A DNA stretch of 64,000 nt, taken from assembly GCA_047638595.1 (NCBI GenBank), contig JBLIMJ010000003.1, positions 11,710-75,709 of the forward strand, written 5' to 3'. Within the stretch, counting starts at the first letter, position 1, and each line of letters starts with the position of its first letter. The notes below the pieces were generated by a model. That model saw only the letters and a list, made by a program, of their open reading frames with translations. It was not told the origin of the DNA and did no database searches. Both the position numbers and the translations under genes were made by a program. Of the stretch, positions 14,126 through 27,502 are shown one piece after another. The DNA is from Acidimicrobiales bacterium (GTDB lineage: Bacteria; Patescibacteriota; Minisyncoccia; Phycocordibacterales; UBA918).

Positions 14126-14815
14126 TTACTTCTCCTTTTTTGCACGCCAGGCGTCTATCATTTTATGATCACCACCTAACAAAACCTCTGGAACTTTGTA
14201 TTTCTTTTTTTTGTATTCTAAAACATCGGGTCGGGTATAGGCTTCGCCGTTAGTATCTCGCTCATCTTCTAGTGATTCAAATGTACCAAGCACACCCGGG
14301 ACCTGTCGGGAGACTGCGTCAATGATACTTAGTGCTGGGAGTTCACCTCCAGTAAGGATGTAATCTCCCATGCTCACCTCTTGAGCTTTCAGTGCTTTAT
14401 TTACTCGGTAATCAATACCTTCATACCGTCCAGAGATAAGAACGACATGGTCGTATTTCTTCGCGAGGTCTTTCGCCATCTTCTGGTCGAACACTTTTCC
14501 TCGGGGAGACATAATCAACGTCTTCACTTTCTTTTCCTTCAAAGCCTTCGTCTTCCTCCCCACTGCTTTGCCCCATGCCTTAAGCACAGGTTCAGCAGCC
14601 ATGACCATACCTGGACCTCCTCCATATGGTTTATTGTCAACCTTCCTATTTTTGTCCTTCGTAAAGTCACGTGGATCATAATACTCAACAGAAATCTTCT
14701 TACCACGAACCTTTGCCCCCTTCCCCTTATCTGTTTTCTGAGCACGCCCCAAAATACTTGCGTCAGTATATGCGCGACAAACCTCTGGAAACAATGTGAT
14801 TACGTGGAAATTCAT
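14126..14815 (-). CDS. trmD: tRNA (guanine37-N1)-methyltransferase TrmD
   Basis: 'MNFHVITLFPEV...ILGRA' N-terminus and SPOUT fold signature. Carries a lysine-rich insertion. Confidence 0.9.
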   Translation of the reverse strand: MNFHVITLFPEVCRAYTDASILGRAQKTDKGKGAKVRGKKISVEYYDPRDFTKDKNRKVDNKPYGGGPGMVMAAEPVLKAWGKAVGRKTKALKEKKVKTLIMSPRGKVFDQKMAKDLAKKYDHVVLISGRYEGIDYRVNKALKAQEVSMGDYILTGGELPALSIIDAVSRQVPGVLGTFESLEDERDTNGEAYTRPDVLEYKKKKYKVPEVLLGGDHKMIDAWRAKKEK

Positions 14816-14817
14816 AG

Positions 14818-15282
14818 TTATAATTTATCTTTGTACTTTTCAATAAAAAATGGGAACTGCGAATGCATTGGTTCTGGAAATTCATCAATGGTACACCATC
14901 GTAAATCAAGACACTTGTCTGGTTCAGTGATTCTCACTTGTTCAGGGTTGATTTGCACCAAATGATCAAATTGTATCCAGTGTGTCTTCTTGCCCTCATG
15001 CTCTCGAAATACCTCTCGTGTACCAATAAACTCAATATGTAAAACATCTGCTCCACATTCTTCTTTTACTTCTTTACGTATTGTTTCATCAATAGAATCA
15101 CCAAACTCAATTCCCCCACTTCCAATAGGATCCCATCGATTGTGTTCATCCCGGCATTTATCGCTACGCAAACCGAGCAAGTACCGACCTTGACCATCAT
15201 GACATAGCGTCACTGCTGCATTACCTATGTAATCTAACCCCTTTATCATCCAGACATCGTAGCATGAAAGTAAACTGTTCAA
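14818..15282 (-). CDS. NUDIX hydrolase
   Basis: Nudix box 'GGIEFGDSIDETIRKEVKEECG'. Confidence 0.85.
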   Translation of the reverse strand: MNSLLSCYDVWMIKGLDYIGNAAVTLCHDGQGRYLLGLRSDKCRDEHNRWDPIGSGGIEFGDSIDETIRKEVKEECGADVLHIEFIGTREVFREHEGKKTHWIQFDHLVQINPEQVRITEPDKCLDLRWCTIDEFPEPMHSQFPFFIEKYKDKL

Positions 15283-25243: not shown

Positions 25244-25948
25244 TTACCAGTTTTTTGCTTCAAGGGCATTCTCAGCAGCAGCTTGTTCTGCTTCTTGTTT
25301 TGCACGTCCGGTACCTTCTGCAATTTTTCCTTCTCCTAAAAATACACCAACAGTAAATACCCTATCGTGGTCTGGTCCCACTTGTGCAAGAGTTTCGTAT
25401 GTTGGTGTTGTATTTTTATTTTCCTGAGCCAATTCCTGAAAACGACTTTTAGCATCTTGCCACAGCCGTTTCTCAACAATTTTTTCTGTTTTTGGGAACA
25501 AGTGGTCAGCAATAAATTTCTGCGATGCATCATATCCTTGGTCTATATACAGTGCACCAATAAGCGCTTCAAACGCATTAGCGAGAATATACTGTCGCGC
25601 GCGACCTGTATCTTTTGCTTCTCCTTTGGACATCAGTAAGAAATCATTGATACCCAACTTACCTGATGCGTCCGCAAGCGACACCGTATTCACTAATGCA
25701 GCACGAACGGCAGTAAGTTCTCCTTCAGGTTTTTCTGGGTACTTCTTAAAGAGGAAATCGGTCACCACCAACTCAAGCACCGCATCACCAAGAAATTCTA
25801 AGCGTTCGTTATGGTCTTGCTTTGCGTCACGGTTTTCGTTTAAAAACGATCTGTGCGTCACCGCAGTAAGGAGGTTTATTTTTTCATTAAAGGTGAAGCC
25901 TAATAATGTTTCAATTTTGGATACGTCTATATTTTGTTCATCTGCCAT
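25244..25948 (-). CDS. rnc: Ribonuclease III
   Basis: 'ERLEFLGDAVLELVVTDFLF' RNase III signature plus C-terminal dsRBD. Confidence 0.93.
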   Translation of the reverse strand: MADEQNIDVSKIETLLGFTFNEKINLLTAVTHRSFLNENRDAKQDHNERLEFLGDAVLELVVTDFLFKKYPEKPEGELTAVRAALVNTVSLADASGKLGINDFLLMSKGEAKDTGRARQYILANAFEALIGALYIDQGYDASQKFIADHLFPKTEKIVEKRLWQDAKSRFQELAQENKNTTPTYETLAQVGPDHDRVFTVGVFLGEGKIAEGTGRAKQEAEQAAAENALEAKNW

Positions 25949-26096
25949 AGTTACCTATAGTTATGTCTGCTAATGAGTGACACGCGAAATACATTACAAC
26001 AAACCTTTTTAGGTTTTCTATAATCTATCAACGAGTCTGTTTTACTATACACGAAGTGTGCATTTTTGCGAGACTCCATCAACTCCTCTACTTCAT

Positions 26097-26221
26097 TAGT
26101 GTCGAAGAAATAGAGTGCATTTCAAGGCATGCAAGGGATTTTACTTGAGTGGGGCGCACAGCCCAGCGAAAGTAAAATTGCCGCAGCATAACGCTGAAAG
26201 GCGCCTATTTCTTCGACACTA
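26097..26221 (-). promoter_or_regulatory. Structured RNA element in the rnc leader / intercistronic region: 17-bp perfect closing stem around a ~90-nt multi-hairpin insert
   Basis: Arms TAGTGTCGAAGAAATAG (26097-26113) and CTATTTCTTCGACACTA (26205-26221). Internal sub-hairpins GATTTTACTT/AAGTAAAATT, GGGC-GCACA-GCCC and CAGC-ATAAC-GCTG. The 3' arm begins at the upstream gene's stop codon. Confidence 0.55.
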
Positions 26222-27098
26222 ACATTGTGATGGCTTTGGTCACGATAGGTAGTATATCCTCATAGAAATTCAATTCAAGAATATCTGCCACTTTAAACCA
26301 TTGTGCATCATCAAGTCCTCCTTTGTTCTCAAGCTTCAGTTCTGAGTGTGGTGCGCTTGCAAGAAAGTAAGTAACTTGTTTTCGAACCTTGCCGAGCTCA
26401 GGATGAGATGCAACATATTCGTTGTGACCAAGTTCCGCCTCAATAGTAATATCAGCATCAATTTCTTCTTTTAGCTCACGGACAGCACCCGCTTCCACCG
26501 TTTCTCCTTCCTCAATCTTACCTTTTGATAACGTCCAATGACCAAAAATATCATGTACGAGTGCTAGATACATCACCTCATCATCCATCGCATATACCAC
26601 AGCTCCTGCCAGACGCTGGATAGGCATTTCGTCAAAAGGCACAGCTTTCTTTCGCTTTCCTTGTTCCTCTTTTCCCGGTTCACCAATTTCTTTATATACT
26701 GCACCAAGTACCCCATTTACAAATCGACTACTGTTCTCACCTCCAAACTGTTTCGCAAGCTCAATAGCTTCATTGATAGCAACTTTCGCGGGTACTTCTT
26801 TTCGGTCCGCAAACAAAAGCTCATAAAGTCCTAAGCGTAGGATGTTTCTATCTACTGGTGAAATACGATCAATAGGCCACTCGGGAGCAGCTTTTTCAAT
26901 AACCTGATCTAGTTCTGATTGCTTACCAAGAACCCCATCGAGAAGTTTCTCAATGAAAGGATTGTCGGTTTTATTTGGAGCGAATTCTTCTACATTACGT
27001 TCCAGCACCTCGAGAGTTCCTTTTTTATCTATATCGTTTAAATCCCACTCAAAGAGTGTCTGGAGAACGATTGACCGTGATAAATGTCGATTTGCCAT
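26205..27098 (-). CDS. nusB: NusB (transcription antitermination) fused to a C-terminal NUDIX hydrolase domain
   Basis: N-terminal ~145 aa is NusB-like ('MANRHLSRSIVLQTLFEWDLN...', 'RNILRLGLYELLF'). C-terminal ~150 aa carries the Nudix box 'GKIEEGETVEAGAVRELKEEIDADI'. Confidence 0.75.
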   Translation of the reverse strand: MANRHLSRSIVLQTLFEWDLNDIDKKGTLEVLERNVEEFAPNKTDNPFIEKLLDGVLGKQSELDQVIEKAAPEWPIDRISPVDRNILRLGLYELLFADRKEVPAKVAINEAIELAKQFGGENSSRFVNGVLGAVYKEIGEPGKEEQGKRKKAVPFDEMPIQRLAGAVVYAMDDEVMYLALVHDIFGHWTLSKGKIEEGETVEAGAVRELKEEIDADITIEAELGHNEYVASHPELGKVRKQVTYFLASAPHSELKLENKGGLDDAQWFKVADILELNFYEDILPIVTKAITMLVSKK

Positions 27099-27150
27099 GA
27101 AATATAATGTACTAACTTCTACTGCCCAAAGTATACCATTATGTTTTGAG

Positions 27151-27178
27151 CAAAAATCCGGCGTATGCCGGATTTTTG
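27151..27178. terminator. Bidirectional terminator
   Basis: CAAAAATCCGGC-GTAT-GCCGGATTTTTG. Confidence 0.7.
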
Positions 27179-27196
27179 TGGATTATTCTGATTCGT

Positions 27197-27502
27197 TTAT
27201 TTTTCTTCTTTGGTTTCTACGGTTGGAGCTGCTGAAACAGCTTCTGCTTCAGAAGGTGCAATTGATTCAGCTTGTGAGCTGATTACATCCTTTTTAGCCT
27301 GCATACGAGCATCTCGTTTTGCTTTCTGGCCCGCTAAATCCATTACCTGTCGTCCTTTGTAAAAACCACATTGTAAACACATGTGATGTGGTCGGTGTTC
27401 AGCTCCACAATTCTTACACACAGACAAGGTCGGTGCAGTAAGCGCGTGGTGTGAACGGCGGTTCTTTGTATGAGCCCGCGTATGTCGCATTCGAATTACC
27501 AT
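27197..27502 (-). CDS. rpmF: 50S ribosomal protein L32 with extended C-terminal tail
   Basis: '[39 protein letters not shown]' is the L32 zinc-ribbon core. Confidence 0.85.

What the first reader, a model, noticed from the sequence alone, without database searches (positions are those of the whole stretch)
26205..27098. NusB fused to a NUDIX hydrolase domain in a single ORF
Residues 1 to ~145 are a canonical NusB antitermination factor. Residues ~150-297 form a NUDIX domain with an intact Nudix box (GKIEEGETVEAGAVRELKEEID). The frame is continuous with no internal stop or frameshift signature. NusB is a NusE-binding, rRNA antitermination protein. Fusion to a nucleotide-pyrophosphatase or RNA-decapping-type domain suggests coupling of antitermination-complex assembly to nucleotide or 5'-cap (NAD-cap) hydrolysis. 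It sits immediately upstream of rnc with a structured intercistronic RNA between them.
Basis: seen in the sequence. Interest (0 to 1): 0.6.

Follow-up and report, generated by a model that had tools for sequence, protein, structure and literature searches.

The report
NusB with tethered Nudix-fold domain
In a whole class of tiny, uncultured Patescibacteria, the rRNA transcription factor NusB carries an extra Ap4A-hydrolase-like (Nudix) domain that keeps its nucleotide-binding residues while its catalytic residues come and go, which points to an undescribed nucleotide- or RNA-end-binding add-on to the rRNA machinery rather than a simple enzyme fusion.

Summary
The minus-strand ORF 26205-27098 (297 aa) is one continuous protein with a canonical NusB domain (Pfam 130.6 bits; TIGR01951 equivalog above its cut-off) and a NUDIX domain (62.6 bits) with an intact Nudix box. 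It is not a frameshift or assembly artefact. All 120 nearest protein clusters, the 80 loci fetched from 535 relative-encoding stretches found in species-representative genomes, and about 55 distant 50%-identity clusters carry the same fusion. All named source genomes are Patescibacteria (Paceibacteria, Kaiserbacteria and similar), and the rpmF-nusB::nudix-rnc gene order is conserved.

The AlphaFold2 model shows two confident domains joined by a flexible linker. The Nudix half resembles diadenosine-polyphosphate (ApnA) hydrolases, not NudC or RppH.

The catalytic set E199/R207/E208/E211/E212 is complete in 40 of 129 family members and switches state at least 19 times on the tree. Proteins over 90% identical to this one already carry E208A. 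The domain nevertheless stays under strong purifying selection (dN/dS about 0.003-0.06), and its most conserved residues match the phosphate-binding lysines and adenine-stacking tyrosines of Ap4A hydrolases.

Best reading: a genuine NusB with a tethered nucleotide/polyphosphate-binding module, still possibly hydrolytic in this organism, acting in rRNA transcription and RNase III processing. I found no description of it in the literature searched. Interest is moderate.

The parts
26205..27098 (-). Complete nusB::nudix ORF (297 aa plus stop)
   Evidence: ORF list. Both Pfam domains are found in one frame. A 100%-identical protein is in public databases, and there are hundreds of full-length relatives.
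26691..27080 (-). NusB domain (residues 7-136)
   Evidence: PF01029 scores 130.6 bits. The TIGR01951 equivalog scores 135.4, above its cut-off of 88.35. PDB NusB hits reach E = 1e-21. Foldseek against E. coli NusB in its S10 complex (3imq) gives TM 0.86 and rmsd 1.5 A. The block KVAINEAIELAK.FG.ENS.(K/R)FVNGVL is almost identical to E. coli and Thermotoga NusB.
26613..26687 (-). Interdomain linker (residues 138-162), including the low-confidence stretch 144-149 (26652-26669)
   Evidence: In the AlphaFold2 model, residues 144-149 have pLDDT below 50 and pTM is 0.62, although the mean pLDDT is 92.5. This is the most variable segment in the family: 67% mean identity, against 84% for the NusB half and 74% for the Nudix half.
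26256..26612 (-). Nudix-fold domain (residues 163-281), ApnA-hydrolase-like
   Evidence: PF00293 scores 62.6 bits. The Foldseek top hits are Aquifex Ap4A hydrolase 3i7u (TM 0.88), MutT1/Rv2985, CT771, Ndx1 Ap6A hydrolase, and the C. elegans and human Ap4A hydrolases. The HWTxxKG motif aligns to HHWTPPKGH of the C. elegans and human Ap4A hydrolases.
26454..26522 (-). Nudix box G193-A215 (GKIEEGETVEAGAVRELKEEIDA). E199, R207, E208, E211 and E212 are all present here.
   Evidence: Sequence. The same positions are variable among orthologues.
25949..26204 (-). 256-nt spacer between the fusion gene and rnc. It is specific to this genus-level group and predicted to be structured.
   Evidence: MFE is -75.5 kcal/mol, z = -3.74. 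A 91%-identical relative keeps a 257-nt spacer, and some hairpins show compensatory changes. There is no Rfam match. Most family members lack it.
25244..25948 (-). rnc (RNase III), the conserved downstream neighbour
   Evidence: ORF. The orthologous genes carry the Ribonuclease_3 and dsrm Pfam families. rnc is downstream of the fusion in 78 of 80 loci; the other two loci end too early to tell.
27197..27502 (-). rpmF (ribosomal protein L32), the conserved upstream neighbour
   Evidence: ORF. The orthologue carries Ribosomal_L32p. rpmF is upstream in 77 of 80 loci.

Best explanation
This is the organism's genuine NusB, the factor that binds NusE(S10) and BoxA RNA during rRNA transcription. A flexible linker of about 25 residues joins it to a C-terminal Nudix-fold domain of the diadenosine-polyphosphate (ApnA) hydrolase type. 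The fusion is an old, class-wide feature of Paceibacteria-type Patescibacteria. It sits in a conserved ribosome-biogenesis gene string, rnhB-rpmF-nusB::nudix-rnc, and is probably co-expressed with RNase III.

What selection preserves in the Nudix domain is the fold and the nucleotide/polyphosphate-binding pocket: K192, K240, Y228, Y279 and the WT..KG motif. The catalytic glutamates are not preserved. The domain's conserved role is therefore most likely to BIND an adenine-nucleotide polyphosphate moiety at the NusB/NusE/BoxA complex on nascent pre-rRNA. Candidate ligands are the 5'-triphosphate or Np4-capped end of the rRNA leader, or free ApnA/ATP acting as a signal. Hydrolysis would be an optional extra, retained in some lineages. 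This window's protein has the full REx2EE set and may still hydrolyse.

Status of each step: architecture, orthology and distribution are shown. The flexible tether and ApnA-type fold are predicted. The dispensability of catalysis is inferred from conservation. The identity of the ligand and the link to rRNA/RNase III processing are inferred from synteny and from E. coli biology.
For: Architecture and reality of the fusion.

NusB orthology: the equivalog score is above its cut-off; the fold matches NusB at TM 0.86 and rmsd 1.5 A; the NusB sequence blocks are conserved.

Tether: two domains with pLDDT above 90, a linker below 50, and pTM 0.62. The same pattern appears in a distant member, with pTM 0.60.

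ApnA-hydrolase type. The alignment to C. elegans Ap4A hydrolase 1kt9 (sequence verified) and to human NUDT2 maps window K192, Y228, K240 and Y279 onto Ce K36, Y76, K83 and Y121, equivalent to Hs K42, Y82, K89 and F128. PMC4734340 describes Lys42 and Tyr82 as contacting the sulphate at the P1 phosphate site (the plasmodial equivalent of Lys89 also binds it; human Lys89 itself does not), and a conserved loop-5 Tyr plus a second Tyr/Phe as stacking the adenine. PMC5389931 names this Tyr as the ApnA specificity determinant.

Conservation pattern, 129 fusions with sequence weighting: the most conserved Nudix-half positions are K192, Y279, T189, W188, W267, Y244, D183, G165, K240, E212 and Y228. E208 ranks 86th of 128, E211 ranks 54th and R207 ranks 44th. 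The full catalytic set is present in 40 of 129 and changes state at least 19 times on a neighbour-joining tree. Among relatives at least 82% identical, 36 of 120 carry G193S/E196A/E208A (SKIAE..RALKEE). E208 is the equivalent of E58, which is mutated to Ala in PDB entry 4ijx, the human Ap4A hydrolase E58A mutant.

Purifying selection: median dN/dS is 0.055 for the NusB half and 0.057 for the Nudix half. Pairs in which both members have degenerate boxes still give Nudix dN/dS of 0.003-0.05.

Synteny with rnc: it holds in 78 of 80 loci and in members only 33-36% identical, where rnc starts 3-15 nt after the fusion's stop codon.

Precedent for a Nudix fold that binds but does not hydrolyse: CF Im25 binds ATP and Ap4A without cleaving them and acts in RNA 3' processing (PMC2425470).
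Against: There is no experimental data for any member. The conserved Trp, Tyr and Thr residues could be fold-core residues rather than ligand contacts, and I had no access to model coordinates to check exposure. Some Nudix enzymes use catalytic bases outside the box, so proteins with a 'degenerate' box might keep some activity. E212 is invariant and E199 and R207 are nearly so in the close clade, which would also fit a weakened but real enzyme. The specific ligand is not constrained by any result here. The synteny with rnc could reflect generic clustering of housekeeping genes. The neighbour-joining tree and parsimony count are rough. The low pTM does not prove the absence of an interface that forms only in the complex.
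Confidence: 0.55

Rival explanations
1. Active, targeted RNA 5'-end enzyme. NusB delivers a working Nudix pyrophosphohydrolase or decapping enzyme to the 5' end of nascent pre-rRNA. It would convert ppp- or Np4A/NAD-capped ends to monophosphate, licensing leader removal together with RNase III.
For: This window's protein has the complete REx2EE/E199 set. About a third of the family keeps it. The fold belongs to the ApnA-hydrolase clade; from my own knowledge, members of this clade such as NUDT2 and RppH-type enzymes act on 5'-polyphosphorylated or Np4-capped RNA. rnc is always adjacent.
Against: The catalytic set is missing in 89 of 129 orthologues and flips at least 19 times. Proteins 90-92% identical to this one carry E208A. 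Lineages with degenerate boxes are under equally strong purifying selection. The NudC and RppH equivalog scores are far below their cut-offs. The window also encodes a separate stand-alone Nudix protein.
Confidence: 0.2
2. Protein-protein scaffold. The Nudix fold would be a non-enzymatic bridging module, playing the role the inositol-monophosphatase-fold protein SuhB plays in the E. coli rRNA antitermination complex. It would link NusB/E-BoxA to RNA polymerase, NusA/NusG or RNase III.
For: Non-enzymatic Nudix domains that mediate protein interactions are known (PMC5389931). SuhB is an enzyme-fold protein that bridges NusB/E-BoxA and RNAP (PMC4807359). The catalytic residues are dispensable here. 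Related lineages carry other C-terminal appendages on NusB in the same synteny, such as a Lys-rich tail.
Against: The best-conserved residues are those that line the nucleotide pocket in Ap4A hydrolases, not an obvious separate surface. No partner has been identified, and I could not test whether these genomes lack SuhB.
Confidence: 0.15
3. Uncoupled fusion. A housekeeping ApnA/NTP hydrolase gene that lay next to nusB became fused during genome streamlining, and the two halves work independently.
For: The linker is flexible and no fixed interface is predicted. Patescibacteria genomes are compact, for example a 617-kb chromosome.
Against: A housekeeping hydrolase should conserve its catalytic glutamates, and these do not. 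No genuine split nusB + nudix pair was found: the apparent stand-alone Nudix hits were contig-end fragments or, in one case, an in-frame TAA. The fusion persists from 100% down to about 30% identity.
Confidence: 0.08
4. Sequencing or assembly artefact: a frameshift or chimera joining two genes.
For: None was found. One relative (L084) has an in-frame stop in the linker, which shows that such errors or mutations split the gene rather than create the fusion.
Against: Hundreds of independent assemblies from NCBI, JGI, ENA and Logan give the same continuous ORF. Both halves are under purifying selection within one frame.
Confidence: 0.01

Closest known systems
Canonical NusB (E. coli, Thermotoga, Aquifex; PF01029 / TIGR01951)
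   Same: The N-terminal 140 residues are the same all-helical fold (TM 0.86, rmsd 1.5 A to E. coli NusB in the S10 complex). The equivalog score is above its cut-off. The N-terminal Arg-rich helix and the KVAINEAIELAK..FVNGVL block are conserved.
   Different: Canonical NusB is a single-domain protein of about 140 aa. This one has a 25-residue linker and a 135-residue Nudix-fold domain. The gene neighbourhood here is rpmF-nusB-rnc; from my own knowledge, the E. coli context is ribH-nusB-thiL.
RsmB/Sun 16S rRNA m5C967 methyltransferase
   Same: It is a precedent for a NusB-like N-terminal RNA-binding domain fused to a C-terminal catalytic domain that acts on rRNA. The RsmB models match the NusB half at 45-63 bits.
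   Different: The fused domain in RsmB is a Rossmann-fold methyltransferase, not a Nudix fold. All RsmB equivalog scores here are far below their cut-offs. The NusB half here is the true NusB orthologue, not a NusB-like paralogue.
Nudix ApnA hydrolases (human NUDT2, C. elegans Ap4A hydrolase, Aquifex aq_158, Thermus Ndx1, Chlamydia CT771, mycobacterial MutT1/Rv2985)
   Same: These are the best fold matches (TM up to 0.88) and the best PDB sequence matches. They share the HWTxxKG motif, the phosphate-binding Lys residues and the two adenine-stacking aromatic residues.
   Different: Identity is only 22-28%, and no curated equivalog threshold is met. The catalytic Glu set is not conserved among orthologues. 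The SHEH loop that contains Ce E103 is replaced by Gly. The domain is always fused to NusB.
CF Im25 / NUDT21 (non-catalytic Nudix fold in eukaryotic pre-mRNA 3' processing)
   Same: It is a Nudix fold with an incomplete Nudix box that binds but does not hydrolyse Ap4A or ATP, and it works inside an RNA-processing or termination machine (PMC2425470). This is the closest functional analogy to the proposed binding role.
   Different: It is eukaryotic and dimeric, binds UGUA RNA, and its ligand sits outside the box region. There is no specific sequence relationship. It was not among the 50 listed Foldseek hits.
SuhB in the E. coli rRNA antitermination complex
   Same: It is an enzyme-fold protein (inositol monophosphatase) recruited through NusB/E to the rRNA transcription complex, where it promotes rRNA maturation and RNase III processing.
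   Different: It has a different fold and is a separate polypeptide. No evidence here shows that the Nudix domain contacts RNAP, NusA or NusG.
RppH / NudC (bacterial RNA 5' pyrophosphohydrolase and NAD-decapping Nudix enzymes)
   Different: The scores are far below the family cut-offs: RppH 26 against 118, NudC 27 against 158. NudC and NUDT12 structures rank below the ApnA hydrolases in the fold search.

Membership tests
NusB (TIGR01951 / PF01029) | Profile score above the curated equivalog and Pfam thresholds | tested here: met
   TIGR01951 scores 135.4 against 88.35. PF01029 scores 130.6 against 23.1.
NusB (TIGR01951 / PF01029) | All-helical NusB fold | tested here: met
   The AF2 model has seven main helices in residues 2-138 with pLDDT mostly above 90. 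Foldseek gives TM 0.82-0.87 to E. coli, M. tuberculosis and Aquifex NusB.
NusB (TIGR01951 / PF01029) | Binds NusE (S10) and BoxA RNA, and acts in rRNA antitermination and maturation | not testable with these tools
   Support is indirect only. The N-terminal R4/R8/Q13 helix, D83 and the C-terminal block are conserved. From my own knowledge, D83 is the equivalent of E. coli E81 at the NusE interface. No rRNA leader is present in the window.
NusB (TIGR01951 / PF01029) | Sole NusB copy in the genome | tested here: inconclusive
   There is no second match to the family NusB HMM in the 64-kb window. Whole genomes could not be searched.
Nudix superfamily (PF00293) | Profile score above the gathering threshold, and the alpha/beta/alpha Nudix fold | tested here: met
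   PF00293 scores 62.6 against 21.1. The model has the expected strand-helix topology, and the top 27 Foldseek hits are all Nudix proteins.
Nudix hydrolases (catalytically active) | Nudix box GX5EX7REUXEEXGU with the metal-binding and catalytic Glu residues, in this protein | tested here: met
   In GKIEEGETVEAGAVRELKEEIDA, only the penultimate G is replaced, by D214.
Nudix hydrolases (catalytically active) | Catalytic residues conserved among orthologues, as expected if hydrolysis is the selected function | tested here: not met
   The full set is present in 40 of 129 sequences. E208 ranks 86th of 128 positions in conservation. There are at least 19 state changes on the tree. Of the 120 nearest relatives, 45 lack the set.
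Nudix hydrolases (catalytically active) | Measured pyrophosphohydrolase activity | not testable with these tools
   This needs a biochemical assay.
ApnA (Ap4A/Ap6A) hydrolase subfamily of Nudix | Closest fold and sequence neighbours are ApnA hydrolases | tested here: met
   By fold: 3i7u, 9cxx/5ggc, 4mpo, 1vc8, 1ktg and 3u53. By sequence: 4ilq, 1vc8, 9cxx and 1kt9.
ApnA (Ap4A/Ap6A) hydrolase subfamily of Nudix | An adenine-stacking Tyr/Phe downstream of the box, a second aromatic residue, and the phosphate-binding Lys of the WTxPKG motif | tested here: met
   Y228, Y279 and K192 align with Ce Y76, Y121 and K36. They are conserved in 42, 51 and 50 of 52 diverse fusions. Their roles are taken from PMC4734340, PMC5389931 and PMC2425470. 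The Tyr lies 13 residues after the box, not 17, because the loop is shorter.
ApnA (Ap4A/Ap6A) hydrolase subfamily of Nudix | Curated equivalog threshold, for example MutT1 NF052459 | tested here: not met
   The score is 39 bits against a cut-off of 475. No Nudix equivalog reaches its cut-off.
NudC (NAD-capped RNA decapping / NADH diphosphatase) | Equivalog profile NF001299 | tested here: not met
   The score is 27.3 against 158, and the match covers only the generic Nudix core.
RppH (RNA pyrophosphohydrolase) | Equivalog profiles NF001936 / NF001938 | tested here: not met
   The scores are 26 against 118 and 17 against 116.

The most novel reading that the evidence does not exclude
The Nudix-fold domain is a reader rather than an enzyme. 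Tethered to NusB/NusE on BoxA, it would capture the 5'-triphosphate or Np4A-capped end of the nascent pre-rRNA leader, or sense free ApnA/ATP. That would give these minimal-genome bacteria a direct nucleotide-signal or 5'-end input into rRNA antitermination and RNase III processing. Lineages would toggle between a 'bind and hydrolyse' form and a 'bind only' form.
Probability: 0.15. Interest if true: 0.75.

Novelty: new variant of a known kind. Interest (0 to 1): 0.5.

Why it matters
NusB is one of the most conserved bacterial transcription factors and is normally a bare 140-residue protein. Here a whole class of Patescibacteria, with hundreds of species-level genomes, has kept an ApnA-hydrolase-type Nudix fold attached to it, next to RNase III, under strong selection. 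The catalytic residues meanwhile switch on and off repeatedly, even between proteins more than 90% identical.

Three things follow. It gives a natural series of 'active-box' and 'dead-box' variants for testing what a nucleotide-binding module does on the rRNA transcription and processing machine. It suggests that ultra-small bacteria elaborate the antitermination complex differently from E. coli, where the enzyme-fold protein SuhB is recruited. It would also add a bacterial example to the small set of non-catalytic Nudix domains working in RNA-processing complexes, such as CF Im25.

On the practical side, these proteins are currently annotated only as 'NusB'. Automated function calls that infer an extra Nudix hydrolase activity from the Pfam hit would be unsafe for most members.

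Tried and rejected
1. Frameshift or assembly artefact: rejected on conservation.

2. Search for genuine split nusB + nudix gene pairs. The apparent stand-alone Nudix representatives P0218 and P0227 start at contig ends, and P0240 sits on a 695-nt contig and was not resolved. P0258 comes from L084, where an in-frame TAA replaces the conserved Tyr codon in the linker. No true split form was found.

3. I suspected that the NusB proteins of about 340 aa (P0236, P0260, P0265) carried a degenerate Nudix domain with an insert. The family Nudix HMM does not match them at all and Pfam finds only NusB, so I dropped the idea.

4. NAD-cap (NudC) or RppH identity: rejected on equivalog scores.

5. The spacer upstream of rnc as a known RNA family: no Rfam match at gathering thresholds or at E <= 1. 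A metagenome pattern scan found only 4 loci, too few for covariation statistics.

6. Literature. Searches for NusB with Nudix, fusion, Candidate Phyla Radiation, Patescibacteria or Parcubacteria found nothing relevant. The 2017 Nudix-clan review never mentions NusB. A search for the Ap4A hydrolase residue names failed, and PMC7092880 is not held.

7. The AFDB Foldseek library was unavailable, so UniProt-level taxonomy and annotation of the fusion could not be listed. Cluster look-up of distant members gave no organism names.

8. The sigma-70-like hit directly abutting the ATG (27128-27101) was ignored as geometrically implausible.
Full report
**Observation.** The finding's coordinates hold one ORF on the minus strand (26205..27098, ATG start, 297 aa, no internal stop).
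- Pfam places NusB at residues 7-136 (130.6 bits, gathering score 23.1) and NUDIX at residues 163-281 (62.6 bits, gathering score 21.1).
- The NCBIfam nusB equivalog TIGR01951 scores 135.4 against a cut-off of 88.35. No Nudix equivalog comes near its cut-off: MutT1 39 against 475, NudC 27 against 158, RppH 26 against 118.
- The Nudix box is G193-A215 (GKIEEGETVEAGAVRELKEEIDA). E199, R207, E208, E211 and E212 are all present, and only the penultimate Gly is replaced, by D214.

The sequence-level observation is therefore correct, apart from the strand not being stated.

**Not an artefact.**
- The 120 best 90%-identity clusters (82-100% identical, 297-324 aa, from NCBI, JGI, ENA and Logan assemblies) all carry PF01029 and PF00293.
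- A scan of one genome per GTDB species found 535 stretches encoding a relative. The 80 loci kept (65-88% identical) cover the query end to end wherever the contig allows. All come from MAGs; most are labelled Patescibacteria or one of its groups (Kaiserbacteria, Adlerbacteria, Nomurabacteria, Paceibacteria/Parcubacteria, Minisyncoccia, and automated 'Saccharibacteria' labels), a few only 'bacterium', and one 'Azotimanducaceae'. One is a 617-kb complete chromosome.
- In the library of 50%-identity representatives, about 55 of the best 150 hits span both halves in one stretch, down to 32% identity.
- Apparent stand-alone Nudix relatives gave no genuine split pair: two start at contig ends, one sits on a 695-nt contig and was not resolved, and in L084 an in-frame TAA replaces the conserved Tyr codon of the linker (..GAV*KELGEP..).
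- The family HMMs find no second NusB in the window. They do find one weak, separate Nudix ORF at 14818-15282.

**Context.** The gene order rnhB-rpmF-nusB::nudix-rnc, usually followed by a pilin-like gene and smc, is conserved.
- rnc is downstream in 78 of 80 loci (the other two end too early), and rpmF is upstream in 77 of 80.
- The order also holds in members only 33-36% identical, where rnc starts 3-15 nt after the fusion's stop codon.
- A relative whose NusB carries a Lys-rich tail instead of a Nudix domain sits in the same rpmF-nusB-rnc string. The NusB C-terminus therefore seems to be a site where these bacteria add accessory modules.
- In E. coli, nusB and rnc are functionally linked. 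rnc mutations suppress nusB defects in 30S maturation (PMC4807359). [quoted passage not shown]

**Structure.** AlphaFold2, run with a 52-sequence family alignment, gives mean pLDDT 92.5 but pTM only 0.62. Residues 144-149 fall below pLDDT 50. This describes two confident domains with no confidently fixed mutual orientation.
- Foldseek against the PDB matches the N-terminal half to NusB (E. coli NusB in its S10 complex, TM 0.86, rmsd 1.5 A).
- It matches the C-terminal half best to ApnA hydrolases: Aquifex Ap4A hydrolase 3i7u (TM 0.88), mycobacterial MutT1/Rv2985, Chlamydia CT771, Thermus Ndx1 (Ap6A), and the C. elegans and human Ap4A hydrolases. NudC and NUDT12 rank lower.
- None of the 50 listed matches aligns across both the NusB and the Nudix domain.

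**The key result: which residues are conserved.** I aligned 129 fusion proteins (78 from species genomes plus 51 others, most of them diverse cluster representatives).
- The catalytic set E199/R207/E208/E211/E212 is complete in only 40 of them.
- With sequence weighting, E208 (the Glu of 'RE') ranks 86th of 128 Nudix-half positions in conservation. E211 ranks 54th and R207 ranks 44th.
- The top positions are K192, Y279, T189, W188, W267, Y244, D183, G165, K240, E212 and Y228.
- On a neighbour-joining tree built without the box columns, the intact/non-intact state needs at least 19 changes. Shuffled labels need 28-35.
- Among the 78 close species, position 208 is E in 31, A in 31, S in 7, K in 7 and G in 2. 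W188, T189, K192, Y244, W267, Y279 and E212 are invariant.
- Among the 120 nearest clusters, 36 carry the correlated G193S/E196A/E208A form (SKIAE..RALKEE). Several of these are 90-92% identical overall to the window protein.
- E208 aligns with human NUDT2 E58 and C. elegans E52. E58A is the mutant crystallised as PDB entry 4ijx.
- The degeneration is not decay. Median dN/dS is 0.055 for the NusB half and 0.057 for the Nudix half. Pairs in which both members have degenerate boxes give Nudix dN/dS of 0.003-0.05.
- The most degenerate member tested (P0232, with LQINK at the five positions) is still predicted as a confident Nudix fold. The caveat is that the alignment used for that prediction includes members with intact boxes.

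**What the conserved residues are.** I recalled the C. elegans Ap4A hydrolase sequence and verified it as 100% identical to PDB entry 1kt9. Aligning it and human NUDT2 to the family maps:
- window K192 to Ce K36 / Hs K42;
- window Y228 to Ce Y76 / Hs Y82;
- window K240 to Ce K83 / Hs K89;
- window Y279 to Ce Y121 / Hs F128;
- window H187-W188-T189 to the HWT of HHWTPPKGH.

PMC4734340 describes Lys42 and Tyr82 of the human enzyme as coordinating the P1 phosphate site. It describes the adenosine as stacked between the conserved loop-5 Tyr and a second Tyr/Phe, which is Phe128 in human. PMC5389931 names this Tyr as the ApnA-hydrolase specificity determinant, and PMC2425470 says the same. The family thus keeps the pocket that holds an adenine nucleotide and its phosphates, while letting the catalytic glutamates vary. 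I could not inspect model coordinates, so some of these residues (W188, W267, Y244) may simply be fold core.

**Interpretation.** The best-supported reading is a genuine NusB with a flexibly tethered, ApnA-hydrolase-derived nucleotide/polyphosphate-binding module. It acts in the rRNA transcription and RNase III processing context. Hydrolysis is retained in some lineages, possibly including this one, and lost in most.
- The closest functional analogy is CF Im25. Its Nudix fold lacks two box glutamates, binds Ap4A (Kd about 2.4 uM) and ATP without hydrolysing them, and works within an RNA 3'-processing factor.
- SuhB, an enzyme-fold component recruited through NusB/E, is a second precedent.
- RsmB shows that a NusB-like domain can be fused to an rRNA-directed catalytic domain.

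The ligand remains an inference. It could be the pre-rRNA 5'-ppp or Np4-capped end, or free ApnA/ATP. Rival readings are set out separately with their odds: a targeted active decapping or pyrophosphohydrolase enzyme, a protein scaffold, and an uncoupled fusion.

**The spacer.** The 256-nt region between the fusion gene and rnc folds better than every one of 200 shuffles (z = -3.74).
- A 91%-identical relative keeps it at 257 nt.
- Alignments show two modules. A 5' module of about 125 nt contains a long hairpin with compensatory changes (GGGC/GCCC against CGTAC/GTACG). A 3' block of about 110 nt is shared with more distant relatives.
- It matches no Rfam family.
- It is absent from most of the family, where rnc follows within a few to about 130 nt.

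It is therefore a local feature, perhaps an rnc leader or promoter region, and not part of the conserved fusion system.

**Novelty and score.** The proteins are in public databases, annotated only as NusB. Both Pfam domains are visible in the precomputed annotation. I found no paper describing the fusion in the held literature, and the comprehensive 2017 Nudix-clan review does not mention NusB. I rate it a new variant of a known kind. It is a real, class-wide and apparently undescribed elaboration of a core transcription factor, with an unexpected pattern of catalytic-site turnover, but with no experimental handle yet. Interest: 0.5.

Noticed in passing
window 14818-15282 (-): A second, stand-alone Nudix ORF (154 aa) with the box GGIEFGDSIDETIRKEVKEECGA, which is near-canonical (E to D and R to K). 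It lies directly upstream of a TrmD-like ORF (14126-14815). It matches the fusion family's Nudix HMM only weakly (E = 7e-7). The organism therefore has another Nudix protein besides the NusB-fused one.
   Followed up: partly
window 25949-26204 (-); L082:3895-4151; L095:409-658; L097:457-706; L007:4898-5290: The 256-nt spacer between nusB::nudix and rnc is predicted to be strongly structured (z = -3.74). It has two modules: a 5' long hairpin with compensatory changes, and a highly conserved 3' block (GTATAGT ... TTGATAGATTATAGA-hairpin-TGTAATGTATTTCGCG). There is no Rfam match. It occurs only in close relatives. It may be an rnc leader or promoter, or a small RNA.
   Followed up: partly
window, whole (source contig of P0001): The 100%-identical database protein sits on a 76-kb contig labelled 'Acidimicrobiales bacterium' by NCBI. 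The window is 41-43% GC, and the named relatives of this gene and its neighbours are almost all Patescibacteria MAGs. The contig is probably mis-binned.
   Followed up: no
window 27130-27179: Downstream of rpmF there is a 13-bp hairpin (27150-27179) flanked by A and T runs, which looks like a terminator. An extended -10-like TGGTATACT follows at 27130-27138 (-), about 30 nt before the fusion's ATG. This stretch is conserved in relatives by blastn.
   Followed up: no
L084:542-1462: In one relative, an in-frame TAA replaces the conserved Tyr codon in the linker (GAV*KELGEP). Gene callers therefore report separate 'NusB' (133 aa) and 'NUDIX' (141 aa) genes. This could be a sequencing error, a pseudogene, or a natural split.
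   Followed up: partly
P0200 (L093:822-1499); P0252; P0268; P0236/P0260/P0265: Related Patescibacteria NusB proteins carry other C-terminal appendages. P0200 has a Lys-rich tail and sits in the same rpmF-nusB-rnc synteny. P0252 and P0268 have acidic or low-complexity tails. P0236, P0260 and P0265 have extensions of about 200 aa with no Pfam match and no match to the family Nudix HMM. The NusB C-terminus looks like a hot spot for add-ons in this phylum.
   Followed up: partly
P0007-P0016 compared with P0001-P0006 (window residues 193-208): Proteins 90-93% identical overall fall into two Nudix-box haplotypes, GKIEE..RELKEE and SKIAE..RALKEE. The three substitutions (G193S, E196A, E208A) are correlated. 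This suggests either concerted selection or recombination between lineages.
   Followed up: partly
window residues 139-144 (26667-26684, -): A short motif, GEPGK(E/D), sits just after the NusB fold. It is conserved across the fusion family and also in Patescibacteria NusB proteins without the Nudix domain (for example P0200, ..MGEPRKD..). Its function is unknown.
   Followed up: no
P0124 (358 aa): One distant fusion member has a further C-terminal extension with a sub-threshold match to the Rho_N (SAP-like) domain (18.8 bits against a cut-off of 24.9).
   Followed up: no
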